DNA from: Escherichia phage KS_A3
Sequence record: PP627278.1
Length of the DNA stretch: 58,418 bases
Reading direction: 5' to 3' (one strand)
The notes beneath the pieces are model-generated. The model saw nothing but the letters and a program-made list of their open reading frames with translations. It searched no databases and was not told where the DNA came from. The position numbers and the translations under genes were made by a program. How positions within the stretch are numbered: the stretch's first letter is position 1; every line of letters begins with the position of its first letter. Of this stretch, positions 1 through 52,717 are shown piece by piece.

Positions 1-558
1 ATGAACGGGGCAAGTCAAGAGCAATATGATCGTGACTGGACGAATTACATCCAGTATGCAAATAGCTTGTCCGCTGAAGAGATGGCAATACGTGACAAAG
101 TTGTTGCTGAGTACATGTTCGACTACAATTGGACTAACGCTTGCATGAGATGCGGGTTCAATGCTATGTTTGCACAGGAGCTTGGCCAACGCTTTGCCAC
201 GGACTGTTATGTTCGATGGAAGCTCAAGGAGATTGAAAGATCCCGTGTTCAACGTACTTCTGAGCAAGCTAACATTGAAGCAGACCTTGAGCGTCAGCAT
301 ATCATTGAAGCATTAAAACGTGAAGCTCATTATACAGGACCGGGATCTTCTCAAGCTGCTAGAGTCGCCGCATTGGGCAAGCTTGCACAAATTTATGATT
401 TGGATGCTCCCAAGAAGGCTAAGATTGATGTTACTAACAGAGGCGGCGTAATGATAGTCCCTGCTGTAGCAAATATTGACGAATGGGAAAAAACTGCATC
501 CGAGTCTCAACAACGACTAGTTAAAGAGACTGAAGATGGAGCTAAACCGACAACCTGA
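1..558 (+). CDS. putative terminase small subunit
   Basis: 185-aa ORF beginning at window position 1, immediately upstream of and overlapping the terminase large subunit gene by 23 nt; assigned by position only. Confidence 0.4.
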   Translation: MNGASQEQYDRDWTNYIQYANSLSAEEMAIRDKVVAEYMFDYNWTNACMRCGFNAMFAQELGQRFATDCYVRWKLKEIERSRVQRTSEQANIEADLERQHIIEALKREAHYTGPGSSQAARVAALGKLAQIYDLDAPKKAKIDVTNRGGVMIVPAVANIDEWEKTASESQQRLVKETEDGAKPTT

Positions 559-2095
559 TAACATGCCGCGAGTCGTCTGGAAACCACATCCAGGTTCACA
601 GACACTCGCTCTATCCTGCCCCGCTGATATTATCCTATACCACGGAACTCGCGGTCCTGGAAAAACGGACTGCCAGCTTATGCGTTTCCGTAAGAATGTT
701 GGTGTAGGGTACGGTAAATTTTGGAAGGGTATTATATTCGACCGTGAATATAAAAACCTTGATGACCTTGTAACTAAATCCCAGCGTTGGTTTCCTGAAT
801 TTAAAGACGGGGCTAAATTCCTTAGCTCTAAGTCTGATTATAAATGGGTTTGGCCTACAGGTGAAGAGCTACTGTTCCGCGTTGCTTGTAAAGAAAAGGA
901 TTACTGGTCTTATCACGGTCACGAATACCCATTTATCGGATGGAACGAATTAACAAAATATCCGGACGGGCGTTTGTTTGAAGCTATGATGTCCTGTAAC
1001 CGTTCATCTTTCTTACCAGAAGATAACCCAATTATCAATCCAGATGGTACGGTCACATATTTACCGGATATCCCTCTTGAAGTGTTTGCTACCAGTAACC
1101 CGTTTGGTGCGGGACATAACTGGGTTAAGAAACGCTTCATTGACGCTGCACCGATGGGTAAAATACTCAGGAAGACTACGCGAGTGTTTAACCCGAGGAC
1201 GCAGAAAGACGAAGATGTGGTTACGACGCAATGCCATATCTTTGGTTCGTACCGTGAAAACAAAAACCTAAGTCCAAAATATATTGCAGAACTTATGTCT
1301 ATCACAGACCCGAACAAGCGTGCTGCATGGTTGGGCGGGAGCTGGGATATTACATCCGGTGGTATGTTCGATGACCTGTGGCGTAGCACTGTTCACAAAG
1401 TACGACCATTCCCAATTCCAGCAAGTTGGAAGGTTACACGTTCTTTCGACTGGGGTTCTTCAAAACCTTTCTCTGTCGGTTGGTGGGCTATTAGTGATGG
1501 TTCGGATGTTGTGCGTGAAGACGGCACTACATTCTCCACGGTCCGCGGTGACCTGTTTAGGATTAACGAATGGTATGGGACCAACGGTAAAACAAACGAA
1601 GGTCTACATTTGCTGGACTCAGAAATTGCAAGCGGTATACTGGAGCGGGAATTGGCCTGGGGTATACACGATCGTGTAGTTCCTGGTCCTGCGGATAACT
1701 CCATTTGGGATCTGGAGAACAATAACTCCACCGCTGCAACAATGGCGAAGAAAATTCGTCTTAACGGGAAGTTATACAACGGTATACATTGGAAGCGCAG
1801 TGATAAGTCTGCTGGGTCACGTAAACGAGGCTGGCAGAAAATGCGTGAGTTCCTTAAAGCTGCACTGCGGGAAGATGCGAACGGTAAACCTTTGCCCGGT
1901 CCGCGCGAGAATCCAGCAATGTACATTTTTGATAACTGCAACTATTTCTTTGAGCTGGTTCCAAGTCTACCTCGCGATGAAGTAGATCAGGACGACGTTG
2001 ATACGGAATGTGAAGACCATATGGGTGATGAAGTTCGTTATATGGTTCTGGATCAAGCTGTTTATACAGGTGTTGGCAAAACTATCGGTATTTAA
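536..2095 (+). CDS. terL: terminase large subunit
   Basis: 519 aa; N-terminal Walker A-like ATPase motif GTRGPGKTD; size and position ahead of portal gene. Confidence 0.8.
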   Translation: MELNRQPDNMPRVVWKPHPGSQTLALSCPADIILYHGTRGPGKTDCQLMRFRKNVGVGYGKFWKGIIFDREYKNLDDLVTKSQRWFPEFKDGAKFLSSKSDYKWVWPTGEELLFRVACKEKDYWSYHGHEYPFIGWNELTKYPDGRLFEAMMSCNRSSFLPEDNPIINPDGTVTYLPDIPLEVFATSNPFGAGHNWVKKRFIDAAPMGKILRKTTRVFNPRTQKDEDVVTTQCHIFGSYRENKNLSPKYIAELMSITDPNKRAAWLGGSWDITSGGMFDDLWRSTVHKVRPFPIPASWKVTRSFDWGSSKPFSVGWWAISDGSDVVREDGTTFSTVRGDLFRINEWYGTNGKTNEGLHLLDSEIASGILERELAWGIHDRVVPGPADNSIWDLENNNSTAATMAKKIRLNGKLYNGIHWKRSDKSAGSRKRGWQKMREFLKAALREDANGKPLPGPRENPAMYIFDNCNYFFELVPSLPRDEVDQDDVDTECEDHMGDEVRYMVLDQAVYTGVGKTIGI

Positions 2096-2106
2096 CTGGA
2101 GGGTAT

Positions 2107-3603
2107 ATGGGTATTGATGCAACTCACCCGCTATATAACAAGTGGAAGGACGCATGGGTTAAGTGCAACGACTGCTATGAGGGTGAAGATAAAATTAAGG
2201 AAGAAGGTGTTAAATATCTACCACCTTTAGCTTCCATGATTATTGATGGGATGAATAATCCTAATGATTTGGGCTTTCAACGTTGGCTTGCCTATCGTCT
2301 GCGTGCTAACTTCCCTGACGATTATTCAAGTGCGGTTACAAACAATCTAGGTCTGCTGCACCAGAAGCCTCCTACAATCCAGCTCCCCCCTGAAATGGAA
2401 TACATGCGGGATCTGTGTACTGCGGACGGTGAAGACATTATTGCTCTGCTACGTCGCATCAACGAAATGCAGTTAAAAAATGGACGTTTGGGGCTGCTGC
2501 TGGACTTGCCTAAAGGTGAGGATGTAAATAACAGACCTTATATTAGTGTTTATGATGCTTTATCCATTATCAACTGGGATGATGGTAAAGATGAATTGGG
2601 CAATATCAACTTGAACATGGTTGTTCTGGATGAAAGCGGCCCTGTACGTGTCAATCAGTTTGACTGGAAAGAAGAGAAGCGTTATCGTGTACTACAATTA
2701 GGTCCAATGGACACAGATGAAGTTGCAGGTGGAGCTGTCTACTCCCAACATCTGTTTATTAACAATACCAATTATGATGAAGGGCAAATGATTGCTCCTT
2801 ATTATAAAGGTAATACGCTGGATGAAATTCCTTTCCAGTTTGTCAATACAACAGATATTACCCCAGCACCGGAAGCGCCGCCATTGTTGGGTCTTGCTAA
2901 CATTTGTCTAAGCATGTACCGAAGTGACGCGGATTACCGCCAAAGCTTGCATATGCAGGGTCAGGACACCTTAGTCGTTGTTGGTGGTACTGGGGAGAAT
3001 GGGGATAAAGCCCCTCAACGCATCGGTCCTGGCGCTGTCATTAACGTTGCTATTGGTGGTGACGCTAAATATGTAGGTGTTAGCGGTGACGGTTTGTCCG
3101 AGCAACGTCTCGCACTTGCAGCGGATAAGCAAGAAGCACAAATTAAAGCCGGGCAAATGGTAAACAATACCAAGAGTACGCAGGAATCGGGTGAAGCCAT
3201 GAAAACGCGTATTGCTGCGCGTACAGCTAGTCTGATTCGAATTGCGTATACTGGTGCGGCTGGTCTGGAAAACTTGCTGAAGGTTTGCGCTAAGTGGATG
3301 GGCGCTGATCCCGAGAAAGTTGTGGTTAAGCCTAATCTTGAATTCACCAAGAGCATGTTTAACGGTCAAGACTTTGTTCAAATTATCACTGCACGCAACC
3401 TTAAAGCTCCGATTAGCTTGCAGTCTATTCATGGCTGGCTTGTTGATCAGGGCTTAACCACACTAAGCTTTGAAGAAGAAATGGCAATTCTTGAAGAAGA
3501 GCTTAAGAAGTGGCCTCTGCCTGATGATGCTAAAGCTGATTTAAACGCAGAGCAGCAAGTAAGCAAAGATCCTAAGGAAGACAACGCTTCCGATAAAGAA
3601 TAG
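2107..3603 (+). CDS. portal protein
   Basis: 498 aa ORF directly after terL with SD (GGAGGG) before ATG; acidic C-terminus; assigned by synteny. Confidence 0.6.
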   Translation: MGIDATHPLYNKWKDAWVKCNDCYEGEDKIKEEGVKYLPPLASMIIDGMNNPNDLGFQRWLAYRLRANFPDDYSSAVTNNLGLLHQKPPTIQLPPEMEYMRDLCTADGEDIIALLRRINEMQLKNGRLGLLLDLPKGEDVNNRPYISVYDALSIINWDDGKDELGNINLNMVVLDESGPVRVNQFDWKEEKRYRVLQLGPMDTDEVAGGAVYSQHLFINNTNYDEGQMIAPYYKGNTLDEIPFQFVNTTDITPAPEAPPLLGLANICLSMYRSDADYRQSLHMQGQDTLVVVGGTGENGDKAPQRIGPGAVINVAIGGDAKYVGVSGDGLSEQRLALAADKQEAQIKAGQMVNNTKSTQESGEAMKTRIAARTASLIRIAYTGAAGLENLLKVCAKWMGADPEKVVVKPNLEFTKSMFNGQDFVQIITARNLKAPISLQSIHGWLVDQGLTTLSFEEEMAILEEELKKWPLPDDAKADLNAEQQVSKDPKEDNASDKE

Positions 3604-3698
3604 TTGCAACTTCCAAGTTGATTGGTTTATATTAACGAACACGGGGCTGGGACGGCTCAGCCCCAAAAACGTCACACGGGTGACAACGGAGATAAGAA

Positions 3699-28224: not shown

Positions 28225-28866
28225 TTATTTACAAGCTTCAAGGAACTCCCGGCGCCATTCTTTACCAATATCGCTACCATGCTCCAGTTCTGTAGCGCCC
28301 CGGAACGCTTTGGTAATAGTAGAGCTGCCACATACCTGCTTAACTCCGCGCGACTCCATGCACATATGCTTGGCGTCAACATAAACACATACAGCTTTCG
28401 GGTTTAAATGCTCCTGAATAGCGTCTGCAATCTGGTTAGTAAGACGTTCCTGAACTTGCAGTCGACGACTAAAAGCATCCACAACGCGAGACAGCTTACT
28501 AAGCCCAACAATCTTCCCATTGGGGACATAACCCACGACAGCATGACCGATGATAGGAGCCATGTGATGCTCACAATGACTATACACAGGGATATCACGG
28601 ACAATGACCATTTCATTGGTGTTTTCCGCCCCATCCTCAAAGGTTTTAAACAGACCAGCGATATCTACATCGTAACCGCTAAACCACGTTGCATAAGCTT
28701 TCGCTACACGCTCCGGAGTTTCCTCCAGCCCTGGGCGCAGAACCGCGCTAACTTCAATTTGGGATAGTAAAGTACGCACAGCGTTAGCAATACGGAATTG
28801 AACACCTTCACTATTAATACTATATTTAGACATGGTTTGCAGTTTCCTTGTTGTTAATGTGGTCAT
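28225..28866 (-). CDS. folE: GTP cyclohydrolase I
   Basis: 213 aa; SHCEHHM and GLSKL/QVQERLT motifs of FolE. Confidence 0.85.
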   Translation of the reverse strand: MTTLTTRKLQTMSKYSINSEGVQFRIANAVRTLLSQIEVSAVLRPGLEETPERVAKAYATWFSGYDVDIAGLFKTFEDGAENTNEMVIVRDIPVYSHCEHHMAPIIGHAVVGYVPNGKIVGLSKLSRVVDAFSRRLQVQERLTNQIADAIQEHLNPKAVCVYVDAKHMCMESRGVKQVCGSSTITKAFRGATELEHGSDIGKEWRREFLEACK

Positions 28867-48859: not shown

Positions 48860-49150
48860 GTGAACTGGTAATGCCACTATAAAACAGCTATTAGCTATTT
48901 GCAAGAATTGTTTTAATATAGTGCTTAGTGGCGTACATAGTGGGCAAAGCGTGTATAGTACGCCGTTACTGGCTTTGTAAAAGTTTGCCACTATAAACCA
49001 CTATCCCACTATTCACTAATTTTTTATTTTTACACAGAGCAAAGTTTATAAGTTTACGGTTTTCCCCTTATTACCCCGTTTTCAAACAAAGAATTAGTAG
49101 TAGTAGTGAAAACGTGTAAATGCCACTATCACTACTATACTATTAATTAT
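48860..49150. repeat. iteron-like array of CCACTAT motifs in both orientations
   Basis: about ten copies of CCACTAT or its complement ATAGTGG clustered at 48872-49145. Confidence 0.6.
48876..48904 (-). promoter_or_regulatory. candidate sigma70-like promoter
   Basis: on - strand TTGCAA, 17-nt spacer, TATAGT; about 25 nt upstream of the 48848 start codon. Confidence 0.35.
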
Positions 49151-49517
49151 CTGAAAAAAGTTGGGAGTATACCCCTATAAACTTATAAACTTTCAGTCAA
49201 CTAACTAAAATAAACCTAATTAAACTAATATTAATAATAACTATAAATATATATAAAATAAGGATTTATTATTATTGTATATAGTACCTATTGGTATTAT
49301 GTGATGAGTTTATAGTCATTAAATAAACTCTATAAATTTTAATAAACCTGAACGGATGCAGATCAAAAACGAGAAGTCAAGTGCTTTTGAGGGAAATTTA
49401 TTGAACTATTGTAATCGGAAGGTATATCAAGCTATAATGCGCTTAATCGCGGGATATTGGAGGAGGACTTTATTGCGCGGTTAACCGGACCAGTAGGAGG
49501 GCTGGCCCGGAAGTAGT

Positions 49518-51054: not shown

Positions 51055-51279
51055 TTATTTAACCATCAAGGCCCATCTTTTATAGCCGTTCAGCTCCAGT
51101 CTATGACCGTGATCGTTGCAATAACGTTGGATATTATTAAAGTCGTTATCATTCATATCGCTAACATCAATATTAAAATAGTTGCGCTTTGCAGCTGTAA
51201 CGTATTGGGACAATTGTATTGAGTACAGATGTTCAATGTTGTCGATAATAGCTTGCTGAACTTTAGTGATAGTAGCCAT
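51055..51279 (-). CDS. hypothetical protein
   Basis: 74 aa; preceded on - strand by an A8-G9 homopolymer pair acting as SD. Confidence 0.4.
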   Translation of the reverse strand: MATITKVQQAIIDNIEHLYSIQLSQYVTAAKRNYFNIDVSDMNDNDFNNIQRYCNDHGHRLELNGYKRWALMVK

Positions 51280-51286
51280 GATGCAA

Positions 51287-51303
51287 CCCCCCCCCTTTTT
51301 TTT
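51287..51303. repeat. C9-T8 homopolymer tract
   Basis: CCCCCCCCCTTTTTTTT read directly; 7 nt upstream of the - strand ATG. Confidence 0.9.
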
Positions 51304-51532
51304 ATGTGGTTAAGCAGTATTTCTTTGTTGAAGTAATAATAGTCTTGCATCGTGATATTAAATAGGCCAAAAGTGCTCTTTTAGAATTGTTTTGCATCTA
51401 GTGAAAAATACGCTTGCCCTGCATGTTTAGCACTAAGGGCCTAACTAACATCACATCATCTGGAGTATTCGCGCAGGTGTACACATACATATAAAGCTGC
51501 CAAATATTTTTATAAAAAGATGCAAAAAGGTG

Positions 51533-51561
51533 TAGACACATGATCGGTCTAGCACTACTAT
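51533..51561 (+). promoter_or_regulatory. candidate promoter for + strand late/accessory block
   Basis: TAGACA, 17-nt spacer, TACTAT, about 45 nt upstream of the 51608 start. Confidence 0.3.
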
Positions 51562-51607
51562 ATACATACCGCAAGGTGCTACAAATTAACTTAAAGGGGT
51601 CTACATC

Positions 51608-51892
51608 ATGTCCATCGTCACTATGTCGTTCTTCGACCATTGCAATAACGAAAAACAAATTATCGTGAACCTGCAAAAAGGATCTGTTGTCGCACGCAAT
51701 GCTAACCGCCAATGCATCGCGCTAACCGATTTTGCTTTCCGCCTTAACGTGGACAACACTACCGCCAAAAATATCGTTCACGATACAGCGTTGGAAGCTG
51801 CTCACGCTGCGAAGGATAAAGGTATCCGCGACGCACGCAAAATCATGCACAAGGCGCTCGGCATCACGTTCTTCGTTGGGATTAAGGGGTAA
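51608..51892 (+). CDS. hypothetical protein
   Basis: 94 aa ORF with SD. Confidence 0.45.
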   Translation: MSIVTMSFFDHCNNEKQIIVNLQKGSVVARNANRQCIALTDFAFRLNVDNTTAKNIVHDTALEAAHAAKDKGIRDARKIMHKALGITFFVGIKG

Positions 51893-51897
51893 CTACT

Positions 51898-52038
51898 ATG
51901 TCACGCAAATACACGCTTACACGCGCACAGCACGCGTTATTATTGCAGGTTATGCGCGCAGAATATGCAGTTCATGGCTGGCATAGTGCCATGATGCGCG
52001 GTAAAAGCATATATGCGGACATGCGCTCGCAAGGATAA
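51898..52038 (+). CDS. hypothetical small protein (46 aa)
   Basis: below track cutoff; SD AAGGGG; basic (MSRKYTLTRAQHALLLQVMRAEYAVHGWHSAMMRGKSIYADMRSQG). Confidence 0.3.
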   Translation: MSRKYTLTRAQHALLLQVMRAEYAVHGWHSAMMRGKSIYADMRSQG

Positions 52039-52465
52039 CGCACACAGCAGCACCACAGCGAGCTAATGTACATAGGTAATGGTAATGCATTAGCTCGGGC
52101 GAAACAGGCGCACAGCGTCGCACACAGCTCGCACAGCGCACACAGACCCACGCAGGCCCAGCCGCGCGACCCGACCCACCCTTTTCCAGGTACTTGGATC
52201 GCTGGGGCGTGCCCTGTCTATCCTGATAGTAAGTCCTTGCCTAAATCTCACCTGTCACATCCCTGTCCGCCTACATCCATGACCCCACCTACCTTCTTTT
52301 TGAATATATTGCGCTCATCCTTTCTAAATATATGGATTTTGGTAGTAAATTCTGAGTCGTCAACGTATAATTCGTCTTGTAGCTGCTCCATAGCTATCAT
52401 CTTTAAGCGGATGCAACCAATTTCTATCAGTTCACACCTGTTTTTAGAGCATCGAGGAGGTATTT

Positions 52466-52717
52466 ATGTGCGACTCCAGTGCAAGCGCTGCACCCAGCAC
52501 CTCCAGCAATGTGGTTACAGAGGTAAATGCAATGCGATTAGGCCCATATCGCGGGTATTATGGTCGGGCAGCATGGAATGACGCTACTCAACGTTTTGAA
52601 GGCTGGATTATCTGTCCGGAACGTGTTAAATTTCACTCCGTAAAAGAGAAAAATATCGTTCTTAATTTTCAAAAATGTGTCACTAAATATGTAGAGGAGC
52701 AAGAAGAATGCGTGTAA
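52466..52717 (+). CDS. hypothetical protein
   Basis: 83 aa, strong SD GAGGAGG. Confidence 0.5.
   Translation: MCDSSASAAPSTSSNVVTEVNAMRLGPYRGYYGRAAWNDATQRFEGWIICPERVKFHSVKEKNIVLNFQKCVTKYVEEQEECV

What the first reader, a model, noticed from the sequence alone, without database searches (positions are those of the whole stretch)
52039..52465. C-rich 430-bp noncoding island upstream of the late/lysis operon with degenerate CACAG repeats and a perfect palindrome
Between a 46-aa ORF and the strongly initiated gene at 52466 lies a stretch whose only long ORF (171 aa, no SD, Ser/His/Pro/Cys-rich) looks spurious. It contains about five degenerate tandem units of CGCACA(CA)GC (52039-52150), a perfect 9-bp inverted repeat GAGCTAATG...CATTAGCTC (52060-52096) with an internal GTAATGGTAATG repeat, and a perfect TATAAT (52366-52371) with no good -35. 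That combination fits an activator-dependent late promoter or antitermination-type element, or a small RNA.
Basis: seen in the sequence. Interest (0 to 1): 0.5.

Follow-up and report, generated by a model that had tools for sequence, protein, structure and literature searches.

The report
Noncoding island at phage chromosome end
This conserved 430-bp gene-free stretch of an E. coli Seuratvirus most likely straddles the inner edge of a roughly 3-kb terminal repeat, where the packaged chromosome ends, and is followed by a promoter-like leader for the next genes, so it is a genome-end and regulatory landmark rather than a gene or small RNA.

Summary
The window is Escherichia phage KS_S4 (Seuratvirus). 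The stretch is noncoding.

It is conserved in all 35 Seuratvirus records. That includes Salmonella STP-SP5 (73% identity) and Hafnia yong3 (68%).

The decisive lead came from how two relatives were deposited.
- ECP2304 carries a perfect 3,695-bp duplication at both ends of its record. The record's right end falls inside this island, directly before the invariant ATCCTGATAGTA block. That corresponds to KS_S4 position about 52,215-52,220.
- In yong3, the 79 nt left of that block occur twice in the record. The 88 nt right of it occur once.
- The sister phage 9g has a published read-start hotspot in its equivalent noncoding region.
- Another Queuovirinae phage, iggy, has measured terminal repeats.

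My reading of the two halves:
- The left half (CACAG array, 10-bp palindrome, C-rich tract) is the last ~180 bp of the terminal repeat.
- The right half (TATAAT, two hairpins, strong ribosome-binding site) is a promoter and leader for the first unique operon.

A Rho-loading (rut-like) role for the extreme C>G tract remains a non-exclusive rival. There is no support for a small RNA.

Verdict: a new member of a known kind, of moderate interest.

The parts
52035..52058 (+). Left edge of the conserved island, starting at the stop codon of whichever gene lies upstream. Holds the first CACAG unit (CGCACACAGC, 52039-52048) and a second unit found only in KS_S4 (52051-52059).
   Evidence: Homology begins at query position 6 (window 52035) in most relatives, whatever gene lies upstream.
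52059..52097 (.). Hairpin or inverted repeat: 10-bp perfect arms and a 19-nt loop containing GTAATGGTAATG (52076-52087).
   Evidence: z -2.95. The same position holds a hairpin with different inner stem pairs in STP-SP5 (z -5.05) and a weak one in yong3 (z -1.2). It is truncated in SHIN8-type alleles, which carry another hairpin (z -7.2). No U tract follows, so it is not an intrinsic terminator. It is nevertheless annotated as one in SA80RD.
52108..52146 (+). Tandem array of four degenerate (C)GCACA(CA)G(C) units, period 9-12.
   Evidence: Three to four GCACAG units are kept in STP-SP5 and yong3.
52146..52219 (+). C-rich tract (31 C, 20 G in 74 nt) with the blocks ACCCGACCCA (52169-52178) and GGTACTT (52189-52195), which are conserved in all three lineages. 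Inferred to be the last bases of the terminal repeat.
52215..52220 (.). Inferred terminal-repeat boundary, meaning the right physical end of the packaged DNA. Placed by homology and not measured in KS_S4.
   Evidence: The ECP2304 record ends ...GAGGGCCCTT, directly before ATCCATCCTGATAGTAAG. Its last 3,692 nt equal positions 4-3695 at 100%. In yong3, sequence left of ATCCTGATAGTA is present twice and sequence right of it once.
52220..52296 (+). First unique DNA after the inferred boundary. Holds the invariant ATCCTGATAGTA (52220-52231), AAATCTCAC (52243-52251) and CCCCACCTACC (52283-52293). Overlaps the most C>G-skewed 80-nt window in the genome (from 52217).
52296..52365 (+). A+T-rich, nearly invariant segment upstream of the TATAAT. 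Includes the direct repeats CTTTTTGAATATAT and CTTTCTAAATATAT.
   Evidence: Nucleotide diversity 0.011-0.017 among 18 relatives, as low as in the downstream gene. Repeats.
52366..52371 (+). TATAAT, a candidate -10 element with no good -35.
   Evidence: Reads TATACT in STP-SP5. Absent in yong3.
52379..52413 (+). Two adjacent hairpins at the predicted transcript start: 52379-52397, whose stem differs on both sides in STP-SP5, and 52398-52413 (CATCTTTAAGCGGATG, identical in STP-SP5).
52454..52468 (+). Ribosome-binding site GAGGAGG and the ATG (52466) of the 83-aa gene.
   Evidence: The gene belongs to phrog_24875. The protein is 72-76% identical in yong3 and STP-SP5.
52336..52363 (-). Promoter-like site on the minus strand: TTGACG, 16 nt, CAAAAT. 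Function unproven.
   Evidence: A similar arrangement can be read by eye in STP-SP5 and yong3.

Best explanation
The island straddles the inner (right-hand) boundary of a direct terminal repeat of about 3.1-3.7 kb. In other words, it contains the point where the packaged linear chromosome ends, at about 52,215-52,220 in this window.

Left half (52035-52219). This holds the CACAG array, the palindrome and the C-rich tract with ACCCGACCCA and GGTACTT. It is the last ~180 bp of the repeat. The conserved blocks on either side of the boundary (GGTACTT to the left, ATCCTGATAGTA to the right) are the likeliest signals for the packaging enzyme that cuts concatemers and regenerates the repeat.

Right half (52220-52465). 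This is the first unique DNA. It carries a promoter-like TATAAT and a leader beginning with two hairpins and ending in a strong ribosome-binding site. These serve the rightward block of small genes that runs on into the lysis and structural genes.

Shown here:
- the stretch is noncoding and conserved;
- the duplication boundary is at the same spot in two relatives' records.

Inferred:
- that those record ends are real physical ends;
- that KS_S4 has the same ends;
- that the repeats and hairpin act in cutting or in duplicating the repeat;
- that the TATAAT fires.
For: 1. ECP2304 (63,590 bp). Its last 3,692 nt match positions 4-3695 at 100%. Its right end lies in the island, just before ATCCATCCTGATAGTAAG.

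2. yong3 (62,823 bp; only 68% identical in the island). The 79 nt left of ATCCTGATAGTA occur twice in the record and the 88 nt right of it once. By my estimate, an arbitrary break landing in that ~32-nt interval of a ~59-kb genome has a chance of about 5e-4.

3. Phage 9g (sister genus). 91 reads start at position 28,243, inside its 603-bp noncoding divergent-promoter region, and a terminal repeat was inferred (PMC4276943). The coordinates fit the record, because 28,243 minus 27,770 equals the paper's 473 bp.

4. Queuovirinae phage iggy has 1,091-bp terminal repeats measured with Nanopore reads (PMC10484667).

5. The SHIN8-type allele swap (52093-52210) ends within 10 nt of the boundary.

6. 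Sequence blocks flanking the boundary are invariant across three lineages. They occur once in the genome at zero mismatches.

7. It is noncoding. Relatives differ by 1-bp indels and a 31-bp insert. tblastx scores are similar in all frames. No ORF is shared. There is no Pfam or PHROG family.

8. The right half has TATAAT/TATACT followed by a hairpin that differs on both sides of the stem. Its nucleotide diversity is as low as in the coding gene.
Against: - No reads were available. The ends are inferred from how two GenBank records are laid out. No paper describing either phage was found.
- yong3 is labelled circular, and I could not see where its second copy lies.
- Among the E. coli Seuratvirus records, only ECP2304 carries the duplication.
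- The Seurat authors predicted headful (pac) packaging from the large terminase sequence (PMC4342423).
- The packaging model does not explain the extreme C>G skew, especially to the right of the boundary.
- The hairpin is truncated in SHIN8-type phages.
- The island profile finds nothing in the 9g terminus region, so the signal is not shared at sequence level.
Confidence: 0.55

Rival explanations
1. Rho-dependent terminator or attenuator on the rightward early transcript. A long untranslated, C-rich, G-poor RNA is split by a hairpin, as in lambda tR1 (rutA, boxB, rutB). It lets Rho load and stop transcription before the 83-aa gene. Downstream genes would then depend on the TATAAT promoter or on antitermination. 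This can coexist with the genome-end reading.
For: - The 427 nt are untranslated, with no conserved ORF.
- The top two C>G windows of the genome are on the transcribed strand.
- The skew is kept in STP-SP5 (0.29), yong3 (0.38) and the SHIN8 allele (0.34).
- The maximum C-G over 80 nt is 0.30, against 0.21 for the annotated lambda rutA-nutR-rutB region.
- C/A-rich tracts flank a hairpin in every allele.
- A sigma-70-like site lies upstream at 51533-51561.
- No intrinsic terminator lies in between, other than a weak 5-bp stem inside the 46-aa gene.
Against: - Rho does not read specific sequence, so the invariant blocks (GGTACTT, CTGATAGTA, CCCCACCTACC) are unexplained.
- Folding is average rather than unusually weak (z +0.10).
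- There is no transcript data.
- The model does not explain the shared duplication boundary in two relatives.
Confidence: 0.25
2. The whole island is one regulatory unit: an activator-dependent late promoter, a nut/put/qut-type antitermination signal, or a small RNA gene.
For: - TATAAT without a -35, kept as TATACT in STP-SP5.
- The gene order downstream (small genes, lysis, terminase, head, tail) recalls the lambda late operon.
- A hairpin is conserved in three lineages.
Against: - No Rfam family at E<=10.
- No excess stability on either strand.
- No net covariation over the left 265 nt.
- No boxA within one mismatch, and the hairpin (10-bp stem, 19-nt loop) is unlike boxB.
- The right half, including the TATAAT, is replaced by a homing-endonuclease cassette in at least five phages.
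- The genes upstream are variable, so no fixed regulator gene sits beside the island.
Confidence: 0.12
3. Replication origin. The short CACAG repeats act as initiator binding sites, next to a palindrome and an A+T-rich unwinding segment (52296-52355).
For: - A repeat cluster unique in the genome.
- An adjacent segment of 35% G+C.
- Strong DNA-level conservation.
Against: - The units are 7-10 bp and degenerate, unlike typical 17-22-bp iterons.
- Four of the six units are swapped out in SHIN8-type phages.
- No initiator gene lies beside the island.
- A better-looking candidate exists at 48,985-49,350: CCACTAT repeats beside DNA of 14-18% G+C.
Confidence: 0.07
4. A functionless mosaic spacer. The duplications in ECP2304 and yong3 would be assembly overlaps. 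Conservation would reflect recent recombination around a homing-endonuclease insertion site.
For: - The region is a patchwork of allele swaps and insertions.
- Homing-endonuclease genes land here.
- Only two records show the duplication.
Against: - Two independent records, at 68% identity, break at the same conserved spot.
- The island is retained in three lineages at an identity similar to that of the neighbouring gene.
- Every Seuratvirus record has at least its left part.
Confidence: 0.08
5. Protein-coding: either the 171-aa plus-strand ORF (annotated in KS_S4) or the 50-aa minus-strand ORF (52248-52400) is a real gene.
For: Both are open in KS_S4. Different annotators called various ORFs here.
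Against: - Frames are broken by 1-bp indels and a 31-bp insert among close relatives.
- The annotations disagree with each other.
- There is no ribosome-binding site before the 171-aa ORF.
- Neither ORF matches a Pfam or PHROG family.
- The 50-aa ORF has no match outside the island, is frameshifted in CAjan and is cut in SD04.
- It is not open in STP-SP5 or yong3.
Confidence: 0.02

Closest known systems
Terminal-repeat ends of T7-type phages (concatemer junction, flanking arrays of short repeats, hairpin intermediate). Recalled from my own knowledge of Dunn & Studier 1983 and Chung & Hinkle 1990; not checked here.
   Same: An exact direct repeat at both chromosome ends. An array of short degenerate repeats and an inverted repeat lie close to the repeat boundary. 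The cut sits in noncoding DNA, far from the terminase genes.
   Different: The repeat here is about 3-3.7 kb and carries early genes, against 160 bp in T7. There is no sequence similarity. The host RNA polymerase is used. The role of the repeats is unproven in both systems.
Inner end of the long terminal repeat of phage T5, the region of the injection stop signal. Recalled from my own knowledge; not checked here.
   Same: A multi-kb terminal repeat holds early genes. It ends in a noncoding stretch rich in direct and inverted repeats.
   Different: There is no evidence for two-step DNA entry in Seuratviruses. The repeat is three times shorter. There is no homology.
The physical end of phage 9g (Nonagvirus) at position 28,243 (PMC4276943).
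   Same: Sister genus. The end lies in the large noncoding region at the head of the rightward lysis and structural block. Terminal redundancy was inferred. Short direct repeats lie nearby (ATACCAGGTAAC, three copies).
   Different: There is no detectable sequence similarity to the island (nhmmer). In 9g the end lies in the divergent-promoter region itself. In KS_S4 two small genes lie between that region and the island.
Lambda tR1 / nutR (rutA, boxB, rutB).
   Same: An untranslated, C-rich, G-poor tract begins at a stop codon and is split by a hairpin. The C>G skew is at least as strong as in lambda.
   Different: No boxA. The hairpin is unlike boxB. No N-like protein was identified. The tract is four times longer. 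Rho dependence is untested.
pac sites of headful packagers (P1, SPP1, P22). Recalled from my own knowledge.
   Same: Clusters of short repeats around a cleavage site.
   Different: Those sites lie in or next to the small terminase gene. This island lies 6.3 kb upstream of it. An exact 3.7-kb duplication with a fixed inner edge fits fixed ends better than permuted headfuls.

Membership tests
Direct-terminal-repeat boundary (fixed-end packaging) | The same sequence is present at both ends of the linear chromosome. | tested here: inconclusive
   Met at record level in ECP2304: 3,692 nt at 100%, with the copy ending the record. A duplication is present in yong3. KS_S4 itself was deposited without ends, and no reads were available.
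Direct-terminal-repeat boundary (fixed-end packaging) | The boundary sits at the same homologous position in related phages. | tested here: met
   ECP2304 ends directly before ATCCATCCTGATAGTAAG. The yong3 boundary lies within about 32 nt of ATCCTGATAGTA.
Direct-terminal-repeat boundary (fixed-end packaging) | Pile-up of sequencing-read starts at the ends and twofold coverage across the repeat. | not testable with these tools
   No raw reads. The only published read-start data are for 9g.
Direct-terminal-repeat boundary (fixed-end packaging) | The large terminase groups with fixed-end packagers. | not tested
   The Seurat announcement states that its large terminase resembles headful packagers. 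This conflicts with the model and is unresolved.
Headful pac site | Lies within or beside the small terminase gene. | tested here: not met
   The small terminase gene starts the record. The island lies 6.3 kb upstream of it on the circular map.
Rho-dependent terminator (rut site) | At least 60-80 nt of untranslated RNA with C well above G. | tested here: met
   C 40% and G 10% over 80 nt. These are the top two windows of the genome and exceed lambda tR1. No conserved ORF.
Rho-dependent terminator (rut site) | Transcript 3' ends that disappear when Rho is inhibited. | not testable with these tools
   No transcript data.
Lambda-type nut site | boxA (CGCTCTTA/TGCTCTTTA) plus a 15-nt boxB hairpin with a 5-nt loop. 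| tested here: not met
   The best boxA-like matches have 2 mismatches. The hairpin has a 10-bp stem and a 19-nt loop.
Intrinsic terminator | A G+C-rich hairpin followed by a U tract. | tested here: not met
   Not called by the scan. The stem is followed by GGGCGAAACAGG. It is annotated as a terminator in SA80RD by other software.
Any described RNA family (Rfam 15) | A covariance-model match. | tested here: not met
   No match at gathering score over the whole window, and none at E<=10 for 51800-52700. No tRNA or tmRNA.
Iteron-type replication origin | Three or more well-matched direct repeats of about 17-22 bp beside an A+T-rich segment and an initiator gene. | tested here: not met
   The units are 7-10 bp and degenerate. 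They are partly replaced in relatives. No initiator gene lies nearby.

The most novel reading that the evidence does not exclude
The last ~180 bp of the repeat (CACAG array, hairpin, GGTACTT, then the cut before ATCCTGATAGTA) would be a previously undescribed packaging and end-formation signal. It would belong to a siphovirus group that has been assumed to package by headful. The 3-kb repeat would then deliver a double dose of early genes, or a first-entering set of them, as in T5. The extreme C-rich tract would gate transcription across the repeat edge into the lysis and structural operon.
Probability: 0.15. Interest if true: 0.6.

Novelty: new member of a known kind. Interest (0 to 1): 0.4.

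Why it matters
If the island marks the true chromosome end, most of the roughly 35 deposited Seuratvirus genomes are opened at an arbitrary point and lack a 3-kb terminal repeat. That repeat would double their earliest genes.

This has several consequences.
- It affects genome-length and gene-content comparisons.
- It affects the engineering of these phages, which include BASEL collection members and phage-therapy candidates.
- It affects which DNA enters the cell first and meets restriction and other defences.
- It gives an experimentally testable candidate for the packaging signal of the 7-deazaguanine-modified Queuovirinae.
- It removes one spurious 171-aa gene from annotations.

Tried and rejected
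- Rfam, at gathering score and at E<=10: nothing.
- tRNA/tmRNA scan: nothing.
- Whole-island folding on both strands: no excess stability.
- Alignment folding of 21 sequences: no net covariation.
- Similarity to E. coli genomes and to plasmids: none. The island is not host-derived.
- Pattern scans of viral and metagenome collections gave only close relatives. Four loci (L028, L029, L032, L034) were chance matches with no homology.
- A decayed minus-strand gene: tblastn of the 50-aa ORF finds only the island itself.
- I thought I saw a shared layout (CCCCAC..., about 32 nt, TATAnT-GGGATTT) in the Providencia phages PSTCR7/PSTCR4 and in 9g. An nhmmer profile of the island finds nothing significant there, so I do not rely on it.
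- The conserved blocks are not a repeated promoter motif. Each occurs once in the genome at zero mismatches.
- The record start of SLUR75, 56 nt left of the island, and the ends of metagenome contig L033 are arbitrary breaks and not evidence for termini.
- The flanking proteins gave no functional clue. There were only families of unknown function and a weak HicB-like hit for the 83-aa protein.
- No paper on Seuratvirus transcription or termini was found.

Full report
**Identity and setting.** The window is Escherichia phage KS_S4 (PP627282.1; Seuratvirus, Queuovirinae). Window position equals record position minus 108.

Genes on the minus strand (replication and 7-deazaguanine synthesis) run from about 21.9 to 51.3 kb. 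Genes on the plus strand start at 51608 with small ORFs of 94 and 46 aa. The island follows, then about 14 annotated small genes, the endolysin and holin, and, across the arbitrary record start, the terminase, head and tail genes.

If the annotated 171-aa ORF is set aside, the 427 bp between the 46-aa gene and the 83-aa gene are the longest gene-free stretch in the record. This is my reading.

**The observation.**
- CACAG occurs six times in 120 bp. No other 120-bp window of the genome has more than two.
- The palindrome has 10-bp arms (52059-68 and 52088-97). It folds better than shuffled sequence (z -2.95).
- TATAAT lies at 52366-71, with no sigma-70 call on the plus strand there.
- The two most C>G-skewed 80-nt windows in the whole genome are both in the island.

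**Noncoding.**
- Thirteen close relatives differ by several 1-bp indels and a 31-bp insert.
- Annotators of different records placed ORFs of 171, 92, 96, 79, 58 and 42-50 aa here, on either strand, or none at all.
- tblastx against the two diverged relatives scores similarly in all frames.
- No ORF is shared among the three lineages.
- Neither the 171-aa ORF nor the minus-strand 50-aa ORF matches Pfam or PHROGs, whereas all the flanking genes do.
- The 50-aa ORF has no relative outside the island. It is frameshifted in CAjan and interrupted in SD04.

**Conservation and mosaic structure.**
- All 35 Seuratvirus records hold at least the left part of the island.
- Identity is 87-98% among the E. 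coli phages, 73% in Salmonella STP-SP5 and 68% in Hafnia yong3. That is comparable with the neighbouring 83-aa gene, which is 72-76% identical at protein level.
- The left edge is sharp, at the stop codon of whichever gene lies upstream.
- In SHIN8, SA126VB, Dru_SM1 and Skure, positions 52093-52210 are replaced by a 256-bp allele that has its own strong hairpin.
- In WildeMaa, phiG7, Dru_SM1, Skure and SA80RD, everything from about 52260 through the first 22 codons of the 83-aa gene is replaced by an HNH homing-endonuclease cassette.
- SD04 has a 450-bp insert.
- Among 18 close relatives, 52315-52394 is as invariant as the coding gene, with nucleotide diversity of 0.011-0.017.

**RNA tests.**
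- No Rfam family matched, even at E<=10.
- There is no tRNA or tmRNA.
- Neither strand folds better than shuffles.
- The alignment fold has no net covariation.

Two local hairpins do look maintained. The palindrome position holds a hairpin in STP-SP5 with three inner pairs changed on both sides (z -5.05), and a weak one in yong3. The hairpin directly after the TATAAT has a different stem in STP-SP5. In close relatives, two of the four changes in the palindrome stem keep pairing only as G-U on the plus strand, and the other two break pairing. That is weak evidence for a plus-strand RNA.

**The turn.** Looking for what is known about Queuovirinae chromosome ends, I found two reports.
- For the sister phage 9g, 91 reads start at position 28,243, inside its 603-bp noncoding region at the head of the rightward block. 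Terminal redundancy was inferred (PMC4276943). The coordinates fit the record.
- Pseudomonas phage iggy, another Queuovirinae member, has 1,091-bp terminal repeats measured with Nanopore reads (PMC10484667).

Two Seuratvirus records are unusually long.

*ECP2304 (63,590 bp).* The last 3,692 nt are 100% identical to positions 4-3695. The record ends ...CACCCGAGGGCCCTT. In the homologous SHIN8 allele this is followed directly by ATCCATCCTGATAGTAAG. In KS_S4 this corresponds to ...GTGCCCTGTCT | ATCCTGATAGTAAG, that is, position 52,219/52,220.

*yong3 (62,823 bp).* The 79 nt immediately left of ATCCTGATAGTA occur twice in the record. The 88 nt immediately right of it occur once.

Two independent deposits from lineages only 68% identical therefore place a multi-kb duplication boundary at the same invariant motif. 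By my estimate, the chance of this for an arbitrary break is about 5e-4.

The other edge of the ECP2304 repeat maps to about 49,126 in KS_S4. That lies in an A+T-rich noncoding region with CCACTAT repeats. The SHIN8-type allele swap ends within 10 nt of the boundary.

**Interpretation.** I read the island as two things joined at about 52,219.

The left half is the last ~180 bp of a terminal repeat that carries the divergent early promoters and the first early genes. The invariant blocks on either side of the boundary are candidate signals for the cutting and repeat-regenerating step. The CACAG array and the palindrome recall the short-repeat arrays and hairpin intermediate near the T7 terminal repeat, and the repeat-rich inner end of the T5 terminal repeat. 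Both comparisons are from my own knowledge and were not tested here.

The right half is a promoter-like element plus a leader. It has TATAAT (TATACT in STP-SP5), a hairpin at the predicted start, an invariant second hairpin and GAGGAGG.

**What this does not explain.** The extreme C>G skew, strongest just right of the boundary, is typical of Rho loading sites. It exceeds the skew of the annotated lambda rutA-nutR-rutB region (0.30 against 0.21 over 80 nt). The skew is conserved in all lineages and alleles. A Rho-dependent gate on transcripts leaving the repeat is therefore a serious rival, and it does not exclude the genome-end reading.

**Caveats.**
- No reads were available, and KS_S4 itself was deposited without ends.
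- Among the E. coli Seuratvirus records, only ECP2304 carries the duplication.
- yong3 is labelled circular, and I could not locate its second copy.
- The Seurat authors predicted headful packaging.
- There is no sequence similarity to the 9g end region.

**Verdict.** This is a new member of a known kind (a terminal-repeat boundary or packaging end, plus an operon leader), not described in the literature I could search for Seuratvirus. Interest is moderate.

Noticed in passing
window 48985-49350: A second large noncoding region. It has CCACTAT direct repeats (three at 48988-49015, more near 49123-49140) beside DNA of only 14-18% G+C. The left edge of the ECP2304 terminal duplication maps to about 49,126. 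This may therefore be the other chromosome end, or a replication origin.
   Followed up: partly
window 51287-51303: A homopolymer run of C9 followed by T8. On the minus strand this gives A8 G9 just upstream of the ATG of the 74-aa gene (51055-51279), forming an unusual nine-G ribosome-binding site. Such runs are prone to slippage.
   Followed up: no
window 52066-52581 (record CDS0080); also window 51398-51640 and 51302-51397 (record CDS0077 and CDS0076): The annotated 171-aa CDS in KS_S4 is almost certainly spurious. The two small minus-strand CDS overlap the start of the 94-aa plus-strand gene and cover the best sigma-70-like site (TAGACA, 17 nt, TACTAT, 51533-51561). They may be spurious too.
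   Followed up: partly
L020 1420-2010 (WildeMaa), L021, L022, L023, L038: An HNH homing-endonuclease cassette replaces the right half of the island and the first 22 codons of the 83-aa gene. That gene then starts at its internal Met. WildeMaa also has a run of 13 C at the junction (GTCACCCCCCCCCCCCCACCTACC).
   Followed up: partly
L018 1060-1470 (Aeromonas phage SD04 record): A 450-bp insert sits in the island between CCCCACCTACC and the TATAAT region. It carries its own TATACT-type element and an unannotated 31-aa hydrophobic ORF (MSLIGLASAFVLGMVAGAMLMVLIVVLAMRN).
   Followed up: no
L036 30-672 and L037 38-681 (Providencia phages PSTCR7 and PSTCR4): A 640-bp untranslated leader of 40% A and 12-13% G with many AACAATAACA-like repeats. 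It lies downstream of a terminator and several strong promoter-like sites, about 1.1 kb upstream of the homologue of the 83-aa gene.
   Followed up: partly
L039 27960-28025 (phage 9g): Three copies of ATACCAGGTAAC and several ATAGTAAC motifs lie in the noncoding region that holds the published physical end of 9g (28,243). The cut falls just after a GCCGC-GGG-GCGGC hairpin.
   Followed up: no
window 52466-52714: The first 22 residues of the 83-aa protein are low-complexity and dispensable in relatives. The rest has a weak HicB-like PHROG hit (E 0.0047) and is named Hfq in one record. Homologues reach the Providencia phages at 54% identity.
   Followed up: no
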